A DNA stretch of 64,000 bases from Candidatus Kaiserbacteria bacterium (GTDB lineage: Bacteria > Patescibacteriota > Minisyncoccia > Phycocordibacterales > UBA2100): assembly GCA_016217965.1 (NCBI GenBank), contig JACRFI010000016.1:65837-129836 (forward strand), in the 5' to 3' direction. The first letter of the stretch is position 1, and each line of letters begins with the position of its first letter. The notes below the pieces were generated by a model. That model searched no databases and was not told the DNA's origin. It saw only the letters and a program-made list of their open reading frames with translations. Below, piece after piece: positions 914 through 9,954 of this stretch. The translations under genes and the position numbers were made by a program.

Positions 914-942
914 TTGACATATATCGCTGTGTGGGGTATTAT
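914..942 (+). promoter_or_regulatory. near-consensus sigma70 promoter (TTGACA - 17 nt - TATTAT)
   Basis: TTGACA at 914-919, a 17-nt spacer, then TATTAT at 937-942. The only in-frame start of the overlapping ORF (GTG at 931) lies inside the -10 region. Confidence 0.6.
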
Positions 943-949
943 GCGAACG

Positions 950-1385
950 ATAAAGATAATCTCCACGTTGGTTGCGAGACATTCGTACAGACTTCATGGG
1001 GTGTGTCTGGATGCCTCGTAACCGTACGGGTGTCAGGTGACACTCGGCGAGAAGTACGGGGGGAGGTTATCGGTGTGAACCGATTTACCAAGACTGCCTA
1101 CTCAGCGGGGTTTTCGTTGGGCGTTCTGGCGGGGGCCGTAACCTTGCCGTCTACTCCAGCGGAGGCGCGGTGCTGCGGAAGCACATGCCAGCAAAAGTGT
1201 AAGGATACCCATCACATTGGGGGCCATACACTCCAGGGTTGCTACAACTACTGGGGCGGGCTGTGCAAGAAGCCAGCCGCGAGCAAGCAGGCAGTAGGCT
1301 CTCGCGCTCTGAAGCCGGGCACGAGCAAGGCACGGTAACGCGTGCTGAGGGGGCTCGGTCCAACCGGGCCTCTTCGATTTTGGAA
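950..1385 (+). ncRNA. candidate structured non-coding RNA of unknown class (about 430 nt, GC-rich)
   Basis: Lies downstream of the consensus promoter. No translatable ORF follows the predicted TSS. Many GC-rich hairpins are present (e.g. GCACGGUAACGCGUGC). It ends in a 7-bp GC stem (GGCUCGG/CCGGGCC) followed by a U-rich tract (UCUUCGAUUUUGG) at about 1346-1385. The class could not be assigned by eye. Confidence 0.35.
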
Positions 1386-1392
1386 AAGCGCC

Positions 1393-2103
1393 CTATTTTA
1401 AGAATCTGTTTCCCAACACTATTACCGACACAGGTTGTTCCATCGCACTATCAACATCAAGAAGAGTGATGATCACATCATCGTTGAGAGCGCCAAGTGG
1501 GCATGTCGCTAGTGAGAGCGCTTCGCTGACAATTAGGATGTTTTGAGAGAGATGGCCGGCTTCTAGCAGTGAAAGCACATACGCAAAATCTCGATATTTT
1601 TGCGCGCTGCGATCCCATGCTGCGGTACATACAATGACTGCGGTTGGCGATGCATCGCCATTGATTTTCACGTATGAAGAAGGAGAGGCGTCATCCGGGA
1701 GTTTCCAAAGTTGACGCAATACGTGGGTGTCAGGCTCATAATGGAGCAGTATACGTTCACAATTCTCGACAGTGAAGGAGATTACATATATTTCAATAGG
1801 ATACAGACCACCCCCTGAAGGATATGGTCGTCTACCCGATCCACTTTTGTGGGCTGCATAGTAAAGGAGGGAAGATAATGCGCTGAGAGAAACAGGCGTT
1901 CCGCTAAATTCTTTGCGTGACTTGCGCTGCTCTAATGCCTCTGCAAGTGATAGCTTCAGGGGCAACGGCTCTGGCAACGGCACAACCTCCATTCGTTCAT
2001 ATCGTTTCGGTCCGTTAGTGGCGTTAGGTGGTTGAGTGAGCCGATGCTGGTTCTTTCGTATGTACTCGTGAATGCTTGGGATAAAATCGTCCATACACAT
2101 CAA
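1393..2103 (-). CDS. SagB-type (McbC-like) FMN-dependent dehydrogenase, nitroreductase fold
   Basis: Motifs RKSRKEF (nitroreductase RRSxRxF), RRPYPSGGGLYPIEIYV (SagB signature PSAGGLYP) and a C-terminal ATCPLGALND. The gene overlaps the YcaO stop by 4 nt (2100-2103). Confidence 0.8.
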   Translation of the reverse strand: MMCMDDFIPSIHEYIRKNQHRLTQPPNATNGPKRYERMEVVPLPEPLPLKLSLAEALEQRKSRKEFSGTPVSLSALSSLLYYAAHKSGSGRRPYPSGGGLYPIEIYVISFTVENCERILLHYEPDTHVLRQLWKLPDDASPSSYVKINGDASPTAVIVCTAAWDRSAQKYRDFAYVLSLLEAGHLSQNILIVSEALSLATCPLGALNDDVIITLLDVDSAMEQPVSVIVLGNRFLK

Positions 2104-3521
2104 ACGAATGGATGGGGCACGTCGGCGAACACTTCCGAACGCGCGAGATATCCAAATTGCTTCGGTATGCTATGCAAACGTTCTCCCCCTTCGCAGCGAT
2201 TTTTTTCATTGAGATAGAGAGGTTGCAATTCAGGTATGACGGCAAATACGACATAGAATCCGAGGACATTCTTTTTGGAAACCCCTAGGTCTACATACAG
2301 GCATTCATATCCTGTTCTCTGGCACCATTTTGTGATTCGCTCCAGATGTTCTGGCGCTACGTCATTTTCCCACTCTGCGTTCTCAAGCGGGGCCTCCCTT
2401 CCGCTTGTGAGGAAATCCATCATATGCGCCTTCGCAGGATCAGCCCAGTAGATATGCCTATCAGTAAATGTAATATTTTTTTCATCCCGAAGCGTTGCAT
2501 GGTTTCTGACGAGATCCCGAGCATTCTTTCGTGCACGCAGCGCTTCAAGGAGCGCTTTTTCTGCCGCATGCGAGGCAGATGCATGTGCGCTGGTCCCAAC
2601 CGAAAAAGGCGGGAGATTTGCAGAATCGCGCACAACCACCATTATGACGTGGGCAGGCGCATCCGTAATGAGACGGACGAAATGCACGCGTAAATTGTAA
2701 CGGTCGCATCTTGCTAGAAGCTCATGCAATGCAGAGTTGTTTTCTGCGATGGACGCTCTCGCTACTTGGGGAAGCGAAAGTCTATTCAGCCACATGATCA
2801 TAAACGCATCCCGCTCGATGGCTTCGAGCAGTCCCGAAAGTATCGCCTGCGTCTTATCAGGATGTGTCGCGACACCCGTCGTTATCGGCTCTCTCAGCAT
2901 AGGCTCCTTCCGATCTCGCATTGCATCGTGGGCATGGACCCGACTCACGATTTGTGCGGGTAGTAGCAGCGATTTTTTTTGCACGAGCGAGCGTCCTTTT
3001 GTCCATAGAAACTGTGTAGCCTTAGTAACGGACAGTCTCGGCACGGCGTTACGTTGGGTATTTGAGTAGCCTGCAAAGCGTAACGGATCAATAGCTTTTC
3101 CACCCCCGAGTTGATCGAATGTTGAACAAGCCGTCCCCCGGAAGTAATCGTGCTCGTGTCTCCATATATGGCGCTCCTGCGCTTCCGAGACGGCAGCTCG
3201 TAATGCCTCTTTGTCGCTCCTGACAGAGAGACCGCCCGCCTTTTCACCGCCCATATCCACCCACCAGGACCGCATAGGTGGCTCATCGGGGAAAGCATGA
3301 GCGGTCCCAAAGGCGGTTGCAATGTTCGCATCGGCAAGTTTCCGATAGTTGCGCAGCACGTCTTTTAGGTCAGGTCGCGACAATCCGTTTCTTCTGGCAT
3401 CTTTAACTGCTGAGAGGCCAGCTGCAGCCGCGATGTGAGTTGCAAACAAGCGGACGCCTCTTTCCGAAATCGTCCATTCTTCATCGTGTTTCGTAGCCGT
3501 CGGGATCAAAAAATAGCCCAT
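2100..3521 (-). CDS. YcaO-domain protein (azoline-forming cyclodehydratase, TOMM D-protein type)
   Basis: YcaO hallmark segments ITTGVATHPDKTQAILSGLLEAIERDAFMIMW and GTSAHASASHAAEKALLEALRARKNA. There is an N-terminal region of about 200 aa whose function is not recognisable. Confidence 0.85.
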   Translation of the reverse strand: MGYFLIPTATKHDEEWTISERGVRLFATHIAAAAGLSAVKDARRNGLSRPDLKDVLRNYRKLADANIATAFGTAHAFPDEPPMRSWWVDMGGEKAGGLSVRSDKEALRAAVSEAQERHIWRHEHDYFRGTACSTFDQLGGGKAIDPLRFAGYSNTQRNAVPRLSVTKATQFLWTKGRSLVQKKSLLLPAQIVSRVHAHDAMRDRKEPMLREPITTGVATHPDKTQAILSGLLEAIERDAFMIMWLNRLSLPQVARASIAENNSALHELLARCDRYNLRVHFVRLITDAPAHVIMVVVRDSANLPPFSVGTSAHASASHAAEKALLEALRARKNARDLVRNHATLRDEKNITFTDRHIYWADPAKAHMMDFLTSGREAPLENAEWENDVAPEHLERITKWCQRTGYECLYVDLGVSKKNVLGFYVVFAVIPELQPLYLNEKNRCEGGERLHSIPKQFGYLARSEVFADVPHPFV

Positions 3522-3605
3522 GCACGCATACTATCACGCAGGGTATGAGGGTTATGCACATGACCCTATTAGACACTATGCGAGCGCGCAATTATCATTT
3601 GCAGT

Positions 3606-3992
3606 ATGGTAGTAAAGATGCGCGGGCATACCCTTCGAGGGATTGGTTTTGTTCGAACGGTCGGATTGTTTTTACTTGGCGCTTTTGTCGTTTTTCTCGC
3701 AATAGTATTTCCAAGGTGGTTTGGTGCTGGGTCTACACACGGTCTTTCGGGTACTGGTATCGCGCTTGCCGATGCACCGAGTTGCTCTGGCGGCGGAGGT
3801 TGCGGGGGAGACGGCAACTGCAGCGGTTGTAGTACTTGCAGCGGTTGCACTGGAGATAGCTGCGGCAATGGCTGCGGTGGTGATGGATGTAGTTGTAGTG
3901 GCGATTGTGGTTGTGGCAATGGTAACGGAGGTGGCGATGGTGATGGTGGGGACGGAGGAGGAGGAGGAGATTCTTCGGCTTGTGGAAGCTGA
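3606..3992 (+). CDS. candidate TOMM (microcin B17-like) precursor peptide: hydrophobic leader plus Gly/Ser/Cys/Asp-rich core
   Basis: 128 aa; the alternative start is the ATG at 3618. Residues 1-45 are a basic, then 20-aa hydrophobic stretch (VGLFLLGAFVVFLAIVFP). The C-terminal 68 aa is CSGGGGCGGDGNCSGCSTCSGCTGDSCGNGCGGDGCSCSGDCGCGNG...DSSACGS, with 14 Cys almost all flanked by Gly/Ser. It is divergent from the YcaO-SagB pair across an 84-nt spacer. Confidence 0.5.
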   Translation: MVVKMRGHTLRGIGFVRTVGLFLLGAFVVFLAIVFPRWFGAGSTHGLSGTGIALADAPSCSGGGGCGGDGNCSGCSTCSGCTGDSCGNGCGGDGCSCSGDCGCGNGNGGGDGDGGDGGGGGDSSACGS

Positions 3993-4010
3993 TGCAAAAA
4001 AATAGCGAAC

Positions 4011-5147
4011 ATGCTCTCAAACAGCAATTTGCGTACGTTTCTTGTTGCAATGGTCGTGAGTGTAATGGCGATTCTGGGAATTTTTTACTGGTGGCTTGGT
4101 ATTAAAGTAAACAATGATGCAGCTCAAGAAGTCAACCTTGTTATCGAAGGCGTACGACCAATAAGTATTTACAACCACACAGGGGACAACGCATATATCG
4201 TTAATGACCTTTCTGCAGCAGTGATTTCCGTTTTGGAATACTATGGTGCAAATTTGTCGCAAAGCAATCTCAAAAAGATAAATGGCAGATTTTGGGACGA
4301 CAGTAATCCAAGCGCTTTGCACCAGCTGGAAGACGTCAAGCTTCTCACGGAAGAACTTGGCTACAGTGCAACGATTGAAGTCGCGGAATCCATCGCAGAT
4401 TTCAAGAAATATTTCTCAGGTATACCAACACCTGTCATTTTCTCGCATTTCATTGAGATCGACCAAAATCCGGAGATTCAATTCAAGCCTATGGGAGTTC
4501 TCATCGGCATGTTGGATAGTGAGCAATCTGTCATTATTCACGACTATTATTTTGGCTACAACAAGAAACTCTCGTATTGGCAATTTGCGAGGCTTGGTGC
4601 ATACCCTGCGCAAGTTTTGGTGATTAAGCCGAAAATCCCGAGGGTCGGTGCACCTGATGCAAGCGAGGAATACGTGCGAACGGAATCGATGGATAAGGCA
4701 GAACCGATCATAAATAAGATAACACTTGGGCGTGTAGCACAGGCGCAGCAAAAATATAGGATCGCCGCAAGTTACTATAGCGCTGCGTTAAAGCACCCCG
4801 ACCGGGATATAGTACCTCCGTATTACAAAGTAGTCGCGCTCAACGGCGGTGTTGGCAGTTATATACGGCTCGATGGTGATTATGATTCAGCATACGAGCT
4901 CGCGAAATTGGGGGAGGAGTTCAATCAAAATCTAGACGAGCCCTATGGGGATTATTGGCCGGGATTTGTCGACGGCACTAACCTCATTACAGATCAGTTC
5001 GCCGGTATATACTACTGGCTCGGTAGGATATATGAACACAAGGGTGATGTAGCGCAGGCTAAGGCGAATTACGAACACGCGCTTGAAATATATCCATATG
5101 GACCGTCTATTGATGCGCTTGAACGCATCAAAACTGAGAGCGAGTGA
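4011..5147 (+). CDS. membrane-anchored protein with peptidase-C39-like (papain-fold) domain and C-terminal TPR
   Basis: N-terminal TM helix. The segment NDLSAAVISVLEYYGANLSQSNLKK aligns by eye to the C39 motif DCGxAxLxMxxxYYGxxxSLxEL, but the nucleophile Cys position is not Cys. A later PVIFSHF/IIHD His region follows. The C-terminus has a TPR-like repeat (YYWLGRIYEHKGDVAQAKANYEHALEIYP). Confidence 0.45.
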   Translation: MLSNSNLRTFLVAMVVSVMAILGIFYWWLGIKVNNDAAQEVNLVIEGVRPISIYNHTGDNAYIVNDLSAAVISVLEYYGANLSQSNLKKINGRFWDDSNPSALHQLEDVKLLTEELGYSATIEVAESIADFKKYFSGIPTPVIFSHFIEIDQNPEIQFKPMGVLIGMLDSEQSVIIHDYYFGYNKKLSYWQFARLGAYPAQVLVIKPKIPRVGAPDASEEYVRTESMDKAEPIINKITLGRVAQAQQKYRIAASYYSAALKHPDRDIVPPYYKVVALNGGVGSYIRLDGDYDSAYELAKLGEEFNQNLDEPYGDYWPGFVDGTNLITDQFAGIYYWLGRIYEHKGDVAQAKANYEHALEIYPYGPSIDALERIKTESE

Positions 5148-5941
5148 TGTTTACAAATCGAAGAGTGTTTGTCGTAGGAAGTTTCTCGTTATTTCTTTTG
5201 GCAGCGTTGCTGGGTAGGCAACAAGTACAAGCCATCGGCGAGACCGCATTATTCCTCGTTTCTCCGACGGCAGAGCGTGCGTATGAGTATGGTGCGCGGC
5301 ATTTTGATGCAATTCATGCACGGGATTACGACATGGATCGCGCTGTATTTTTTTTCAAGGAGGCCGAGAAAATCGATGCCGATTATCCGTATCTCCAACA
5401 TCAGCTCGCAAGAATTTCGTTTCTAAAAGGAGATTTTGCAAATGCTCTCCGCCGAATTGATCGTGAAATAGAGAATAATCCATCCCCCTCGCTGTCTTCC
5501 TTTTATGTACGAGGACTTGTGAAAGGATTCGCCGGCGATTACCTTGGTGCGATACCTGATTATCAGAAGTTCCTGGAATCTGAACCCGCGAATTGGGCTG
5601 CTTCCAATGATCTCGCGTGGGTATATTTGAAGGCGAATCGTCCGAGTGAAGCGCTTGTGGCGATTGACGCAGCGTTATCAGCGAACATAGGTAATCCATG
5701 GCTCCTCAACAGCAGGGCGACGGCGCTGTTCGAACTGGGCCGCCTTGAAGAAGCGCGTGATGCAGCCCGGCTTTCCTTGTATGCGGTCAAGGGAATAACA
5801 AAAGAAGACTGGCTCAAAGCATACCCCGGCAATGATCCTCTTATCGCGCCAGAAGGCATGCATGCGTTCCAATCGGCTGTTCTTGCGAATATGCACAGTA
5901 TTCTTATTGCGATGGAGAAGGAGCAGAAAGGTGTGAGATAA
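5144..5941 (+). CDS. TPR-repeat protein with N-terminal signal/anchor
   Basis: N-terminal hydrophobic segment, several TPR-like repeats, and a 4-nt overlap with the upstream gene. Confidence 0.5.
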   Translation: MMFTNRRVFVVGSFSLFLLAALLGRQQVQAIGETALFLVSPTAERAYEYGARHFDAIHARDYDMDRAVFFFKEAEKIDADYPYLQHQLARISFLKGDFANALRRIDREIENNPSPSLSSFYVRGLVKGFAGDYLGAIPDYQKFLESEPANWAASNDLAWVYLKANRPSEALVAIDAALSANIGNPWLLNSRATALFELGRLEEARDAARLSLYAVKGITKEDWLKAYPGNDPLIAPEGMHAFQSAVLANMHSILIAMEKEQKGVR

Positions 5942-5953
5942 TCCTCTTATCTT

Positions 5954-6646
5954 ATGGCTCATAACGAGGGACAGCGTCGTTGGCGGCTATTTTCAGCTCG
6001 AGAGATATTGCTTTTGGGAGCATTCGTTATTGTGCTTGCCGCCGCATATCAGTTTGACGGAGCGAGGCTTCCTATCACGTCAGCGGAAACGCAATTTGTG
6101 GAGCGTTCGGCATCTGGCCTGCAGATTGTGCCAGCCTCGTGTCCCTCGAACCCGCATGGCGGGCAATCATGCTATTCGCAAAGTTATTATCAAGGCTACT
6201 ACCAATCGTATTATCAAGGCTACTACCAATCTTCATACTGCACGACGCAGTATCAGTGCTCGGGCGATTCGAAGCGCGTCATCGACAGCTGTAATCCTGC
6301 GGGGACGATACTAACCTGCTCTTCGTCGCAGACATGTGTCAACGCGAGCTGCGTATCCATAGATGCTTCTCTCACGGTTGTTCCCAACCTGCTCCGTTCG
6401 GGAGAAACGACCCAGGTAACGTGGAAAGGCACGAATGTGTCGTCGTGCACGGTCACCGAAGATAACCCAGGATTCACGGATTCGTGGAGCTGTAACTCTG
6501 TTGCCTCGTGCACCGCAAACCATACAAATACATCGAGTCCCATCGACGCGGAGACAAAATACACGTTGACGTGTACCGCGCCTAGTGGCTCAACAATCAT
6601 AAAGACAGCGACTGTTCGCATCATCCCGGTGTGGATCGAGGAATGA
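5954..6646 (+). CDS. membrane-anchored Cys-rich protein with tandem YYQ(G/S) repeats
   Basis: N-terminal TM helix. The repeat is SYYQGYYQSYYQGYYQSSY, visible in DNA as ctactaccaatcgtattatcaaggctactaccaatc. 15 Cys are scattered through a Ser/Thr-rich ectodomain. Confidence 0.5.
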   Translation: MAHNEGQRRWRLFSAREILLLGAFVIVLAAAYQFDGARLPITSAETQFVERSASGLQIVPASCPSNPHGGQSCYSQSYYQGYYQSYYQGYYQSSYCTTQYQCSGDSKRVIDSCNPAGTILTCSSSQTCVNASCVSIDASLTVVPNLLRSGETTQVTWKGTNVSSCTVTEDNPGFTDSWSCNSVASCTANHTNTSSPIDAETKYTLTCTAPSGSTIIKTATVRIIPVWIEE

Positions 6647-6662
6647 TGGTACACTGATTTAC

Positions 6663-7076
6663 ATGAAAGCTATCGCTGTCGCATATCTCGGAATATTCAT
6701 TGCCTTCACAGCGATGCCGGCCGTTACATCCGCGCAGGAGATGTATCAGGACGATTCATCAGTTCTTCGCTCTGAAATACGTCTCGCGCTTCTTGCAGAC
6801 GCCCGTTCCAGCGAACTTACCGATGAGGAAGTTGCAATGCTCGTTGAGTCACTTGCGGGGGAGGCGGAGGCACAGGGAATAGCGCAAGAATTTCTGCCCG
6901 AGCGGGCACAAACCATGCGGGCAGACGCAATTGCTAATTGGTGGGAAAACCTCTCGGAGCCTATGCTTTACGGGATAGTGCTCGTTGCGCTCGCGCTCGC
7001 GATGGTCCTCATGAAGCGCATCATTGATTCGCACCACCACGCTGCCCGCCCGCCGGATACGCCCGCAGCTGTGTAG
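6663..7076 (+). CDS. small secreted/membrane protein (signal peptide plus C-terminal TM)
   Basis: Signal-like N-terminus MKAIAVAYLGIFIAFTAMPAVTSAQE, a C-terminal hydrophobic helix and a His-rich tail. Confidence 0.4.
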   Translation: MKAIAVAYLGIFIAFTAMPAVTSAQEMYQDDSSVLRSEIRLALLADARSSELTDEEVAMLVESLAGEAEAQGIAQEFLPERAQTMRADAIANWWENLSEPMLYGIVLVALALAMVLMKRIIDSHHHAARPPDTPAAV

Positions 7077-9105: not shown

Positions 9106-9954
9106 ATGAGCATGAAATTTTACAAACCAACGACAGCGGGCCAGCGAGGCATGAGCCGGGTCAATTTTCGCGCTGCCCTCTCTGGAAAAGGGCGAGCGAA
9201 ATTCCTCACAGAAGGAGGAAAGCGCGCAGTCGGAAGAAACGCGTTTGGCCGCATCACGACGAGGCACAAGGGTGGAGGGCACAAACGCGTGTGGCGCGAT
9301 GTGGATTTCCAACTCAATAAGAAGAACATCCCTGCGCGCATCGCCACGATCGAATACGACCCAAATCGCTCCGCGTTCATCGGGCTTGCTATCTACAAGG
9401 ACGGAGAGAGGCGGTATGTGGTAGTTCCTAAAAATATGAACGTTGGAGACACATTTCTCGTCTCTACTGATGCTCCTATTGCGCCGGGGAATCGGCTTCC
9501 TCTTGCGAATATCCCCGTTGGCACATTCGTATTCAATATAGAGCTCTCTCCAGGCGGAGGCGGCAAAATTGCAAGGAGTGCGGGCAACTTCGCGGAGGTT
9601 GTTGCGCAAGACGCGGGATACACACACCTCAAAATGCCTTCGACAGAAGTTCGTCGCGTCATCGGAACTGCGTGGGCAACTGTGGGCGAAGCATCAAATG
9701 ATGAACATCGTTTGCAAGTCATCGGAAAGGCTGGCCGCACGCGTTGGATGGGCGTCCGCCCGACGGTTCGAGGCTCCGCAATGAATCCTGTGGACCATCC
9801 ACACGGAGGAGGTGAAGGAAAACAAGGGAGAGGCCTCCGTCGAGCTAAATCTTTGTGGGGCAGGCCAACAGGGAAGGGACAGAAGACCCGCCGCCCGAAG
9901 AAATACTCAAACGTATTTATCGTTTCTCGCCGCCGTGTAGGTAAGCGAAAATAG
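9106..9954 (+). CDS. rplB: 50S ribosomal protein L2
   Basis: MSMKFYKPTTAGQRGMSRVNF...GGGEGKQGRG, the L2 signature. Confidence 0.95.
   Translation: MSMKFYKPTTAGQRGMSRVNFRAALSGKGRAKFLTEGGKRAVGRNAFGRITTRHKGGGHKRVWRDVDFQLNKKNIPARIATIEYDPNRSAFIGLAIYKDGERRYVVVPKNMNVGDTFLVSTDAPIAPGNRLPLANIPVGTFVFNIELSPGGGGKIARSAGNFAEVVAQDAGYTHLKMPSTEVRRVIGTAWATVGEASNDEHRLQVIGKAGRTRWMGVRPTVRGSAMNPVDHPHGGGEGKQGRGLRRAKSLWGRPTGKGQKTRRPKKYSNVFIVSRRRVGKRK

What the first reader, a model, noticed from the sequence alone, without database searches (positions are those of the whole stretch)
3606..3992. Precursor-like peptide with a transmembrane/signal-like leader and an Asp-punctuated G/S/C core
Unlike the soluble McbA leader, residues 6-40 carry a basic n-region plus a 20-residue hydrophobic helix (VGLFLLGAFVVFLAIVFP) and then PRWFGAGS. 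This looks like a Sec signal or membrane anchor. The core has regularly spaced Asp (GGDGNC, TGDSC, GGDGC, SGDC, then GGGDGDGGDGGGGGD). That is a metal-chelating or acidic pattern not seen in microcin B17. The reverse strand of the same DNA gives a Pro-rich ORF (PPPPPSPPSPSPPPLPLP...), which is the expected mirror artefact of a Gly-codon-rich gene.
Basis: seen in the sequence. Interest (0 to 1): 0.8.

Follow-up and report, generated by a model that had tools for sequence, protein, structure and literature searches.

The report
Membrane-anchored azole-peptide precursor of CPR bacteria
This small gene is real and belongs to an unannotated family found next to azole-forming (YcaO/SagB) enzymes in ultra-small CPR bacteria, and its conserved front half is a membrane-spanning helix plus an AHA|DAP junction instead of the usual soluble leader, which suggests a modified peptide exported by the cell's general secretion route.

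Summary
An automatic gene call had picked a shadow frame instead.

- **Family:** It has about 60 distinct homologues in YcaO loci of Kaiserbacteria, Paceibacteria and other Parcubacteria. A whole-library search found 63 clusters at 50% identity. All are labelled hypothetical and none has a Pfam or NCBIfam model.
- **Shared architecture:** All members have a basic N-terminus, a roughly 19-residue transmembrane helix, a P-R/K cap and a 14-34 residue spacer. A conserved G-[VI]-A-H-A|D-A-P junction follows (GIALA|DAP here). The tail is hypervariable and acidic, rich in Gly, Ser, Cys and Asp.
- **Gene context:** The gene lies divergent from a YcaO cyclodehydratase plus SagB dehydrogenase pair. This holds in 36-38 of 40 loci of the close YcaO clade and in 0 of 32 distant loci. 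No E1/ThiF-type partner is present in the CPR loci.
- **Operon:** The gene heads an operon of membrane-anchored or secreted TPR proteins.
- **Best reading:** It is a linear azole peptide (LAP) precursor whose leader is a signal-anchor. It would be modified in the cytoplasm, then exported and probably cut after AxA.

Modification, topology and cleavage are all inferred, not shown. LAP clusters in CPR were already reported in 2020, but I found no description of this leader type. I rate it a new variant of a known kind, interest about 0.6.

The parts
3606..3992 (+). Precursor gene, 128 aa plus stop. It is a member of a conserved CPR family with a TM helix, an AHADAP-type junction and a C/S/G/D-rich core.
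   Evidence: The ORF is listed. It is the only family member in the 64-kb window.
3606..3770 (+). Leader, residues 1-55. It comprises a basic n-region (K4, R6, R11, R17), the TM helix, a P36-R37 cap, a 15-aa spacer, and ends in A53-L54-A55.
   Evidence: Leader alignment A2. Family statistics: N-flank net charge median +3 against +1 on the C-flank.
3657..3710 (+). Predicted transmembrane helix, residues 18-35 (TVGLFLLGAFVVFLAIVF).
   Evidence: Kyte-Doolittle 19-mer mean is 2.54. Equivalent helices score 1.6-2.8 in all family members. Gly25 is nearly invariant.
3756..3779 (+). Junction motif G51-I-A-L-A|D-A-P58. The family consensus is G-x-[GDN]-[VI]-A-H-A|D-A-P. It is the putative cleavage or recognition site.
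   Evidence: Position counts: A at -3 in 55/61, H at -2 in 43/61, P at +3 in 44/61. The A at -1 and D/E at +1 were imposed by the regular expression used to anchor the motif.
3771..3989 (+). Core, residues 56-128. It is acidic and Gly/Cys/Ser-rich, with 13 Cys, 13 Ser/Thr, 9 Asp and no basic residue. The first part is Cys-rich and the last part is a G/D-rich tail.
   Evidence: Family core composition is G 29%, S 15%, C 14%, D 13%.
3570..3598 (+). Promoter-like site TAGACA-17-TATCAT. Its -10 element ends 7 nt before the ATG, so the mRNA may be leaderless.
   Evidence: This is a consensus match only, with 0.7 expected by chance. No Shine-Dalgarno sequence is seen upstream of this or of the r-protein genes.
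2100..3521 (-). YcaO cyclodehydratase, 473 aa, transcribed divergently 84 bp away.
   Evidence: Pfam YcaO E = 1.4e-47. TIGR03604 SagD-type scores 218 bits against a cut-off of 219.25. The AF2 model has pLDDT 89 and its best fold matches are LynD, MusD, TruD and McbD. No TM segment.
1393..2103 (-). SagB-type FMN dehydrogenase, 236 aa, overlapping the YcaO stop codon.
   Evidence: TIGR03605 scores 112.6 bits against a cut-off of 78.4. Pfam Nitroreductase E = 4.8e-17.
4011..5147 (+). Gene immediately downstream in the same operon. It encodes an N-terminal TM helix, a domain with weak papain-like (Peptidase_C70) similarity, and TPR repeats.
   Evidence: 7 of 14 family members hit PF12385, best E = 2.8e-4. 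By my own reading of the sequences against recalled C39/C70 motifs, the position expected for the catalytic Cys is mostly T, V or L; no tool placed the catalytic residues. Homologues follow the small gene in L049 and in distant CPR loci.
5144..5941 (+). Secreted TPR protein, 265 aa, conserved in most related loci.
   Evidence: Pfam TPR_19 E = 2.8e-15. Homologues with E from 1e-20 to 1e-71 lie in the same operon position.
5954..6646 (+). TM-anchored Cys-rich protein, 230 aa, with a Y/Q/S repeat. It is conserved downstream of the TPR gene in many loci.
6663..7076 (+). Small secreted or anchored protein, 137 aa. It is the last conserved gene of the operon before the r-protein cluster.

Best explanation
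The ORF encodes the precursor peptide of a YcaO-dependent linear azol(in)e peptide (LAP/TOMM-type RiPP) of a Candidatus Kaiserbacteria (CPR) bacterium. Its leader is not a soluble recognition peptide. It is a signal-anchor built from a basic n-region, a roughly 18-19 residue transmembrane helix, a Pro-Arg cap, a spacer, and a conserved AxA|DAP junction.

**Proposed sequence of events:**
1. The 128-aa protein is made, possibly from a leaderless mRNA.
2. While the C-terminal tail is still on the cytoplasmic side, the soluble ATP-dependent YcaO converts Cys, and possibly Ser/Thr, of the core to azolines. The SagB-type flavoprotein then oxidises them to azoles. No E1/ThiF/RRE partner is involved.
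3. The helix inserts with the N-terminus inside. The tail has no basic residues and is rich in Asp, so it is translocated by a general route (Sec or YidC type).
4. The tail is released by cleavage after A53-L54-A55, by a signal-peptidase-like or other extracytoplasmic protease. Alternatively it stays tethered to the membrane.
5. Outside the cell it meets the membrane-anchored and secreted TPR proteins encoded downstream.

**What is shown:** the gene is real, the architecture is conserved, and the linkage to YcaO/SagB and to the TPR operon is conserved.

**What is inferred:** that it is the YcaO substrate, the order of modification and export, the topology, the cleavage site, and the biological role of the product.
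For: **Reality and frame**
- Comparison with the L002 homologue gives 26 synonymous and 28 non-synonymous codon changes. Differences by codon position are 24/13/40.
- An iterated HMM finds 76 ORF hits, about 61 unique sequences, with the same architecture.
- A whole-library search finds 63 clusters at 50% identity, almost all 70-125 aa long. All are labelled 'hypothetical' and none has a Pfam domain.

**RiPP logic**
- The leader is conserved. The core is hypervariable in length (16-74 aa) and sequence.
- Core composition is constant: G 29%, S 15%, C 14%, D 13%. The median is 6 Cys per core. Ser-Cys is enriched about 2-fold and Gly-Cys about 1.2-fold.
- Some loci carry 2-3 paralogous copies.

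**Linkage to the enzymes**
- 36 of 40 loci of the close YcaO clade have a member by HMM. Two more are found by composition.
- In 47 of 53 loci the gene lies upstream of and divergent from YcaO, at a median distance of 75 bp. None of 32 distant-clade loci has one.
- Three of three family members retrieved through the leader profile alone lie next to YcaO plus a nitroreductase.

**The enzymes**
- The YcaO is SagD-type and the dehydrogenase is SagB-type.
- The YcaO model best matches the azoline-forming heterocyclases LynD and TruD, and also McbD.
- Neither enzyme has a TM segment.

**No partner protein**
- A ThiF/E1-like ORF is found directly upstream of YcaO in 12 non-CPR loci, which serve as positive controls. 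None is found in any CPR locus or in the 64-kb window.
- The YcaO N-terminus is two low-confidence helices, not an RRE fold.

**Export**
- The N-flank has a median net charge of +3 against +1 on the C-flank. Cores have a median of 0 basic residues.
- Downstream genes all carry N-terminal TM helices or signal peptides.
- About 10 related loci include a DsbA-like thioredoxin in the same operon.

**Precedent**
- LAP clusters with YcaO plus nitroreductase in CPR genomes were reported in PMC7298704.
- RiPP precursors with Sec signal peptides are known for bufferins (PMC11626156).
- Lipoprotein-type signal peptides are known for DAG-RiPPs (PMC13056109).
Against: - There is no direct evidence of modification, export or cleavage.
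- Some family members have 0-1 Cys. Examples are the L003 GD-repeat core and L049, which has no Cys and no SagB within 8 kb. Cys-derived azoles therefore cannot be the universal point of the family.
- The gene is even more tightly coupled to the downstream TM-TPR gene than to YcaO. It stays next to that gene when the block sits 1.8-4.7 kb from YcaO.
- The AxA motif lies 18 residues after the helix here, with a family median of 21 and a range of 14-34. That is much further than the c-region of a normal Sec signal peptide, so cleavage by signal peptidase I is uncertain.
- A strongly hydrophobic signal-anchor would tend to be inserted early, which competes with cytoplasmic modification.
- A DsbA-like protein in related operons would fit disulfide-bonded Cys rather than thiazole Cys.
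- The TIGR03604 score, 218 bits, is just under its cut-off of 219.25.
Confidence: 0.68

Rival explanations
1. The protein is a membrane-anchored or secreted acidic Gly/Cys-rich envelope protein that works with the downstream TPR proteins, for example in surface structure, attachment or cation binding. It is not a YcaO substrate. Its Cys residues form disulfides or bind metal, and YcaO/SagB act on some other protein.
For: - The tightest pairing is with the TM-TPR gene immediately downstream. Each copy has its own TPR gene in L164.
- The whole operon encodes extracytoplasmic proteins.
- A DsbA-like gene is present in about 10 related loci.
- Members with 0-1 Cys exist.
- A few members are fused to large C-terminal domains, such as the Hint-like domain in L039.
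- Y/Q/S repeats are shared with the anchored 230-aa protein.
Against: - No other small hypervariable Cys/Ser/Thr-rich ORF is seen beside the YcaO-SagB pair in these loci.
- Linkage to YcaO is near-universal and clade-specific: 36-38 of 40 close-clade loci against 0 of 32 distant ones. Three of three independently retrieved members also show it.
- A conserved front with a hypervariable back, plus multiple paralogues per locus, is the RiPP precursor pattern.
- A SagB-type dehydrogenase has no known role other than oxidising peptide azolines (established knowledge of the family).
Confidence: 0.2
2. Biosynthesis is as in the best explanation, but the product is a metallophore or metal buffer analogous to bufferins. 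Thiazol(in)e nitrogens, leftover thiols and the interspersed Asp carboxylates would bind metal ions outside the cell. This concerns the function of the product and is compatible with the best explanation.
For: - The core is strongly acidic and rich in Cys and azole-forming residues. Gly-Asp is enriched 1.7-fold and basic residues are absent.
- Bufferins are exported by Sec, carry Cys-derived heterocycles and bind copper (PMC11626156).
Against: - Nothing in the locus points to metal handling. No metal-responsive regulator, transporter or MNIO enzyme is present.
- The acidic, basic-free composition is equally explained by a need to translocate the tail.
- Hypervariable cores fit antagonism or recognition functions better than a conserved chelating site.
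Confidence: 0.15
3. The region is not this gene. Either it is non-coding low-complexity DNA, or the real gene is the Ala/Val-rich + frame (3721..4005) or the Pro-rich minus-strand ORF (3569..4027).
For: - A codon-usage model built from the window's long ORFs scores the +1 frame best in the core: +0.33 against -0.28.
- An automatic gene caller chose that frame.
Against:
- Substitutions against L002 concentrate at the third position of that frame.
- In other loci the gene callers did call this frame.
- Shadow Val/Ala/Met-rich ORFs recur as by-products of Gly-codon runs.
Confidence: 0.02

Closest known systems
LAP gene clusters of CPR bacteria reported by genome mining (Sharrar et al. 2020, mBio, PMC7298704)
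   Same: The paper describes a YcaO next to a nitroreductase-type dehydrogenase in CPR genomes, with a small Ser/Cys-rich ORF beside YcaO. It reports 110 clusters in 93 genomes, including 51 Parcubacteria, and proposes a peptidase. The present locus is almost certainly one of this kind.
   Different: The words 'transmembrane' and 'signal peptide' do not occur in the paper's main text, and 'leader' occurs once. It therefore does not describe the TM helix, the AHADAP junction, the acidic core bias, the linked TPR/DsbA operon, or the lack of an E1/ThiF partner. Its worked example is from Microgenomates.
Microcin B17 (McbA with McbBCD)
   Same: The core is Gly-rich with interspersed Cys/Ser, including Ser-Cys dipeptides. 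It is processed by a YcaO (McbD) and an FMN dehydrogenase (McbC). The window YcaO model matches McbD structurally.
   Different: From established knowledge, McbA has a short soluble leader bound by the E1-like McbB, has no Asp in the core, is cut by TldD/E and is exported by an ABC transporter. Here the leader is a TM helix, no McbB-like partner is found, the core is acidic, and no ABC exporter is present in the cluster.
Streptolysin S, heterocycloanthracin and plantazolicin type TOMMs (SagBCD)
   Same: SagB-type dehydrogenase and SagD-type YcaO are present. The core is rich in Cys, Ser and Thr and is hypervariable.
   Different: Those systems need SagC or an Ocin-ThiF-like docking protein. 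From established knowledge they use membrane CAAX-type proteases and ABC exporters. None of these is found here.
Bufferins (BufA; MNIO-modified RiPPs with Sec signal peptides, PMC11626156) and DAG-RiPPs (PMC13056109)
   Same: The RiPP precursor's N-terminal part is a general-secretion signal. Cys is turned into heterocycles in the cytoplasm before export. The product acts outside the cytoplasmic membrane.
   Different: The enzyme class differs: MNIO/DUF692 with a DUF2063 partner rather than YcaO/SagB. Bufferins have a classical cleavable signal peptide and a folded core with conserved Cys. Here there is a TM-length helix, a long spacer, a dedicated conserved junction motif and a low-complexity hypervariable core.

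Membership tests
Linear azol(in)e peptides / TOMM (YcaO-dependent RiPP) | A YcaO cyclodehydratase is encoded next to the precursor. | tested here: met
   Pfam YcaO E = 1.4e-47. TIGR03604 scores 218 bits, with a cut-off of 219.25. The fold matches LynD, TruD and McbD. The gene is divergent, 84 bp away.
Linear azol(in)e peptides / TOMM (YcaO-dependent RiPP) | An FMN-dependent SagB/McbC-type dehydrogenase is present. | tested here: met
   TIGR03605 scores 112.6 bits against a cut-off of 78.4.
Linear azol(in)e peptides / TOMM (YcaO-dependent RiPP) | An E1-like (C protein) or Ocin-ThiF-like partner with an RRE binds the leader. | tested here: not met
   None is found among the neighbours. The ThiF-like part of P0062 detects partners in 12 non-CPR loci but none in CPR loci or in the whole window. 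The YcaO N-terminus is not an RRE fold. A SagC/McbB-type protein was not searched with its own profile.
Linear azol(in)e peptides / TOMM (YcaO-dependent RiPP) | The precursor has a conserved leader and a variable core rich in Cys, Ser and Thr. | tested here: met
   The window core has 13 Cys and 13 Ser/Thr in 73 residues.
Linear azol(in)e peptides / TOMM (YcaO-dependent RiPP) | Azole or azoline heterocycles are present in the mature product. | not testable with these tools
   This needs mass spectrometry of the product.
Classical Sec signal peptide cleaved by signal peptidase I | A positively charged n-region. | tested here: met
   K4, R6, R11 and R17 are present. The family median net charge is +3.
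Classical Sec signal peptide cleaved by signal peptidase I | A short h-region of about 7-15 residues, followed within about 3-7 residues by an AxA site. | tested here: not met
   The hydrophobic stretch is 18-19 residues, which is TM length. AxA lies 18 residues after it here, with a family median of 21 and a range of 14-34. Ordinary signal peptides in the same operon, in TPR265 and orf137, do have the short form. SignalP and TMHMM were not available.
Classical Sec signal peptide cleaved by signal peptidase I | Small residues at -3 and -1, and no Pro at +1. | tested here: met
   A53-L54-A55|D56 here. Across the family A is at -3 in 55 of 61 members and a helix breaker (G, D or N) sits at -5. 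Whether the site is cleaved is unknown.
Bufferins (MNIO-modified, Sec-exported RiPPs) | An MNIO (DUF692) enzyme with a DUF2063 partner, and a DUF2282 or BUF_6/12Cys precursor. | tested here: not met
   No such domains are found in the nine neighbouring proteins or in the precursor.
Microcin B17 family | Sequence relatedness of the precursor to McbA, and an McbB-type scaffold. | tested here: not met
   The precursor has no NCBIfam or Pfam hit. No partner protein is found.

The most novel reading that the evidence does not exclude
This would be a distinct RiPP logic in CPR bacteria, in which the leader peptide is a membrane signal-anchor.

- A partner-less YcaO/SagB pair modifies a substrate that is tethered to the membrane. 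Recognition would occur through the TM helix, the PR cap and the AHADAP junction rather than through an RRE.
- The acidic poly-azole tail is then pushed out by the general secretion machinery. It is either released at AHA|DAP or left displayed on the cell surface.
- Outside the cell, dedicated TPR proteins handle it. In these episymbiotic cells it could serve in host attachment, antagonism or metal capture.
Probability: 0.35. Interest if true: 0.8.

Novelty: new variant of a known kind. Interest (0 to 1): 0.62.

Why it matters
- **Substrate recognition:** RiPP enzymes normally recognise a soluble leader through an RRE-type domain, and the products leave through dedicated transporters. A YcaO system with a transmembrane leader, no partner protein and no dedicated exporter would show a second way of coupling azole formation to substrate recognition and export. 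It would extend to the YcaO class the recent finding of RiPPs with general-secretion signals (bufferins, DAG-RiPPs).
- **CPR biology:** CPR bacteria have tiny genomes and few recognisable secondary-metabolite genes. A conserved, hypervariable, surface-directed modified peptide is a plausible mediator of their interaction with hosts or competitors.
- **Annotation:** This family is mis-called or missed by gene finders because of shadow frames. The leader profile built here would allow systematic retrieval.

Tried and rejected
- **Direct homologue search:** A search with the whole 128-aa protein found nothing at E <= 0.01. The low-complexity core swamps the signal, and only leader-based profiles worked.
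- **Exact-product look-up:** It failed because the public gene call is in another frame.
- **Codon usage:** It could not decide the frame and in fact favours a shadow frame in the core.
- **Ribosome-binding site:** Uninformative, because this genome shows no Shine-Dalgarno sequence even before r-protein genes.
- **DNA tandem repeats in the core:** Only a (GGA)5 run was found.
- **Long whole-library hits:** P0101 and P0102 are repeat or TPR proteins that match only the short motif, so they were discarded.
- **Downstream 378-aa protein versus the roughly 380-aa TM-TPR 'X' family of most loci:** hhalign gave 59% probability at 11% identity, so homology is not established.
- **N-terminal domain of the 378-aa protein:** It had no significant match to solved structures by sequence; AvrRpt2 scored E = 0.9.
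- **Fused RRE in the YcaO N-terminus:** Rejected from the model's secondary structure.
- **Literature:** Searches for a TM-helix leader in YcaO systems returned nothing relevant.
Full report
**1. Observation**

The window comes from a Candidatus Kaiserbacteria (CPR/Patescibacteria) contig. The YcaO protein next to the finding is 100% identical to a protein carrying that name in the public collection.

- A basic N-terminus (K4, R6, R11, R17) precedes the most hydrophobic 19-mer of the neighbourhood, with a Kyte-Doolittle mean of 2.54. P36-R37 follows the helix.
- From residue 56 there is a 73-residue tail with 31 Gly, 13 Cys, 11 Ser, 9 Asp and no basic residue.
- All the quoted Asp-containing strings are present.
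- The Asp spacing is not really regular: 13, 15, 9, 7, 11, 2, 3, 6.
- The minus-strand Pro-rich ORF exists at 3569..4027.
- A third open frame lies on the + strand at 3721..4005 and is Ala/Val-rich. An automatic gene caller chose that frame for this very contig. That explains why the exact product is not on record.

**2. Is it a gene, and in which frame?**

Codon usage does not settle the frame. A model trained on the window's 38 longest ORFs slightly prefers the Ala/Val frame in the core. Comparative evidence does settle it.
- In a related locus, L003 to L005 (YcaO 54% identical), the syntenic small gene is MVKVIYRGPTRVYKAIRFITLFTIGAALVLFTVFFPKTF...GIANADVP followed by a GD-repeat tail.
- A two-sequence HMM of the N-terminal 63 residues was searched against six-frame ORFs of 163 loci collected through YcaO homologues. 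It found about 40 hits at once and 76 after iteration, which is about 61 unique sequences.
- Against the closest homologue (L002), 22 codons are identical, 26 differ synonymously and 28 differ non-synonymously. Differences by codon position are 24/13/40.
- The conserved 'MV[VA]...' start supports the ATG at 3606.
- The other frames are compositional shadows. Similar Val/Ala/Met-rich shadow ORFs overlap the true gene in many loci.

**3. Anatomy of the family**

All members share the following parts:
- a positively charged N-flank with a median net charge of +3;
- a helix of about 19 residues with a nearly invariant central Gly, often as Gly-Phe;
- a frequent P-[RK]-x-[FW] cap, with a C-flank median charge of +1;
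- a spacer, so that the junction lies 14-34 residues after the helix (median 21, and 18 in the window);
- a strongly conserved junction G-x-[GDN]-[VI]-A-H-A|D-A-P-[S]-[C].

At the junction, A is at -3 in 55 of 61 members, H at -2 in 43 of 61, and P at +3 in 44 of 61. The window has GIALA|DAPSC.

Everything after the junction is hypervariable in length (16-74 residues, median 41) and in sequence. Its composition is constant: G 29%, S 15%, C 14%, D 13%, A 10%. The median core has 6 Cys (range 0-17), 6 acidic residues and 0 basic residues.
- Asp is preferentially preceded by Gly (1.7-fold).
- Cys is preferentially preceded by Ser (2-fold); Gly before Cys is only mildly enriched (1.2-fold).
- Cys-Cys is depleted.

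The window protein is a large but typical member. Its Asp-punctuated character is a family trait.

A leader-only profile searched against 1.84 billion representative proteins found 63 clusters at E <= 1e-3, almost all 70-125 residues long. The word-indexed search found 19, all 'hypothetical' and without Pfam domains. Neither Pfam nor NCBIfam recognises the protein.

**4. Context**

The gene is transcribed divergently from two enzyme genes, with an 84-bp spacer.
- One is a SagD-type YcaO: Pfam E = 1.4e-47, and TIGR03604 at 218 bits against a cut-off of 219.25.
- The other is an overlapping SagB-type FMN dehydrogenase: TIGR03605 at 112.6 bits against 78.4.
- The YcaO model (pLDDT 89) is closest to the azoline-forming heterocyclases LynD and TruD, to MusD, and to McbD.
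- Neither enzyme has a TM segment.

Non-redundant loci were counted if they had at least 600 bp upstream of YcaO.
- The close YcaO clade carries a family member in 36 of 40 loci by HMM. Two of the four misses have compositionally obvious members.
- The intermediate clade has one in 17 of 40 by HMM. Further members with a diverged xxADxP junction were found by inspection.
- The distant, mostly non-CPR clade has one in 0 of 32.
- In 47 of 53 cases the nearest member is upstream of and divergent from YcaO, at a median of 75 bp.

Three family members retrieved through the leader profile alone all sit beside YcaO plus a nitroreductase.

The ThiF/E1-like part of a fused homologue (P0062) detects a partner ORF directly upstream of YcaO in 12 non-CPR loci. 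It finds none in any CPR locus or anywhere in the 64-kb window. The N-terminal 64 residues of the window YcaO model are two low-confidence helices, not an RRE. The CPR clade therefore pairs a partner-less YcaO/SagB with this unusual leader.

Downstream, the small gene heads an operon.
- In most loci it is followed, often with overlapping stop and start codons, by a TM-anchored TPR protein of about 380 residues (A5, with Pfam results).
- A DsbA-like TM thioredoxin with a CPYC motif often comes next (A6).
- Homologues of the window's secreted TPR protein (5144..5941), the anchored Cys-rich protein (5954..6646) and the 137-residue protein (6663..7076) then follow.
- In the window, in L049 and in the intermediate clade, the first downstream gene is instead the 378-residue type (4011..5147). 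It has a TM helix, a domain with weak Peptidase_C70 similarity (7 of 14 members, best E = 2.8e-4) and TPR repeats.
- By my own reading of the sequences against recalled C39/C70 motifs, the position expected for the catalytic Cys in that domain is usually T, V or L. No tool aligned or placed the catalytic residues.
- When the block lies kilobases from YcaO (L003, L006, L086), the small gene stays with its TPR gene.
- L164 has two small-gene/TPR pairs.

All products of this operon carry N-terminal TM helices or signal peptides. The operon therefore acts at or outside the membrane.

**5. Mechanism**

The most economical reading is a LAP/TOMM-type precursor whose leader is a signal-anchor.
- YcaO needs ATP and is soluble. 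Heterocyclisation by YcaO and oxidation by SagB must therefore happen on the cytoplasmic side before the tail is translocated.
- The positive-inside distribution predicts an N-in/C-out orientation.
- The complete lack of basic residues and the abundance of Asp in the tail are what one expects of a segment that must cross the membrane. From established knowledge, acidic segments of small membrane proteins are translocated with the help of the membrane potential. This offers a simpler reason for the Asp bias than metal binding, although the two are not exclusive.
- The AxA|D junction with a helix breaker at -5 looks like a signal-peptidase I site. It lies far from the helix, and ordinary signal peptides in the same operon are of the short classical kind. 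Cleavage there, and by which protease, is therefore an open inference. The junction could equally be the enzyme recognition element.
- A promoter-like site ends 7 nt before the ATG, and the genome lacks Shine-Dalgarno sequences. A leaderless transcript is therefore possible, but this is weak evidence.

**6. Points against, and rivals**

- Members with 0-1 Cys exist. These include L003, L049 (which also lacks SagB nearby) and several intermediate-clade cores ending in Tyr.
- The linkage to TPR genes is very tight.
- DsbA-like genes are present in related operons.
- A few members have the leader fused to large domains, such as the Hint-like domain in L039 and a shared C-terminal domain in L008 and P0145.

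These points keep alive the alternative that this is a family of anchored or secreted envelope proteins not touched by YcaO. I give that alternative about 0.2. The clade-specific, near-universal linkage argues against it. So does the absence of any other candidate substrate next to an enzyme pair whose only known job is making peptide azoles.

A metallophore role like that of bufferins is possible but unsupported. Non-coding status or another frame is excluded for practical purposes.

**7. Comparison with what is known**

- LAP clusters with YcaO plus nitroreductase in CPR genomes, including 51 Parcubacteria, were reported by genome mining in 2020 (PMC7298704). That paper's main text does not contain the words 'transmembrane' or 'signal peptide'. 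My literature searches found no description of a TM-helix leader for YcaO systems.
- RiPP precursors that use general secretion signals are a recent and still rare theme. Bufferins use a Sec signal with MNIO enzymes. DAG-RiPPs use a lipoprotein signal.
- The present family works like a LAP in its enzymes and like a bufferin in its export logic. It fails the membership tests of classical TOMM (no E1/ThiF partner), of bufferins (no MNIO enzyme) and of a classical Sec signal peptide (helix too long, AxA too far).
- It is best filed as a new variant of the LAP kind.

**8. Verdict**

- About 0.97 that this is a real, conserved gene in this frame.
- About 0.7 that it is the YcaO/SagB substrate.
- About 0.5 for the specific export-and-cleavage scheme.
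- Interest is about 0.6. The cluster type is already known, but the membrane-anchor leader, the conserved junction, the partner-less enzyme pair and the linked extracytoplasmic TPR/DsbA operon form a coherent, undescribed and directly testable system in a poorly understood group of bacteria.

Noticed in passing
window 931..1338 (+), probable true start near 1075: The ORF lies convergent with SagB. From an internal GTG it reads as a classical signal peptide (VNRFTKTAYSAGFSLGVLAGAVTLPSTPAEA) followed by a basic Cys-rich peptide (RCCGSTCQQKCKDTHHIGGHTLQGCYNYWGGLCKK...). L003 has an analogous secreted basic Cys-rich 93-aa ORF at 9348..9629(-). It could be a second secreted peptide of the locus.
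   Followed up: no
window 5954..6646 (+): The TM-anchored Cys-rich 230-aa protein carries a repeat SYYQGYYQSYYQGYYQSS. This resembles the cores of some family members (L116 2041..2418, L025 7456..7797, L113). The resemblance hints at a shared extracytoplasmic function or shared modification.
   Followed up: partly
window 3724..4005 (+) and 3569..4027 (-): The public gene call for this contig uses an Ala/Val-rich shadow frame instead of the conserved frame. Similar Val/Ala/Met-rich shadow ORFs overlap the true gene in many related loci. This family is therefore systematically prone to mis-annotation.
   Followed up: yes
window 4011..5147 (+): The first gene after the precursor has a TM helix, a domain with weak Peptidase_C70 (papain-like) similarity, and TPR repeats. 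By my own reading of the sequences, the expected catalytic Cys position is T, V or L in 13 of 14 homologues while a His is invariant; no tool aligned the catalytic residues. It may be a non-catalytic peptide-binding 'C39-like' domain.
   Followed up: partly
L026 4286..4987, L093 4135..4818, L025 4128..4817 and about seven other loci: A TM-anchored DsbA-like thioredoxin (Thioredoxin_4, CPYC motif) sits inside the precursor/TPR operon in many related loci. It is absent from the window's operon.
   Followed up: partly
L039 6879..7556; L008 1..612; P0145; L033 6839..7630: A few members carry the same leader and a G-rich linker fused to large C-terminal domains. L039 has a Hint/intein-like domain (CLGRGTKISMADG...VLVHN). 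L008 and P0145 share a domain (ICTE[LM][YF]RQG[RK]L...WYEAD).
   Followed up: no
L051, L054, L057, L064, L066, L068, L072, L078, L082, L083, L154, L160 (upstream of YcaO): A ThiF/E1-like partner ORF lies directly upstream of YcaO in non-CPR relatives (Nitrospinaceae, Actinomycetes, MAGs labelled Bathyarchaeota, Gammaproteobacteria). It is found in none of the CPR loci. Its loss coincides with the appearance of the TM-leader precursors.
   Followed up: yes
window 3570..3598 (+): A promoter-like site TAGACA-17-TATCAT ends 7 nt before the ATG, which would give a leaderless mRNA. The r-protein genes of the window also lack Shine-Dalgarno sequences.
   Followed up: partly
L003 4222..5946, L164 1010..2665, L167 1740..3377: A PQQ-like beta-propeller protein is encoded next to YcaO/SagB in several related loci, fused to a phosphoribosyltransferase domain in L003. 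It is not present in the window.
   Followed up: no
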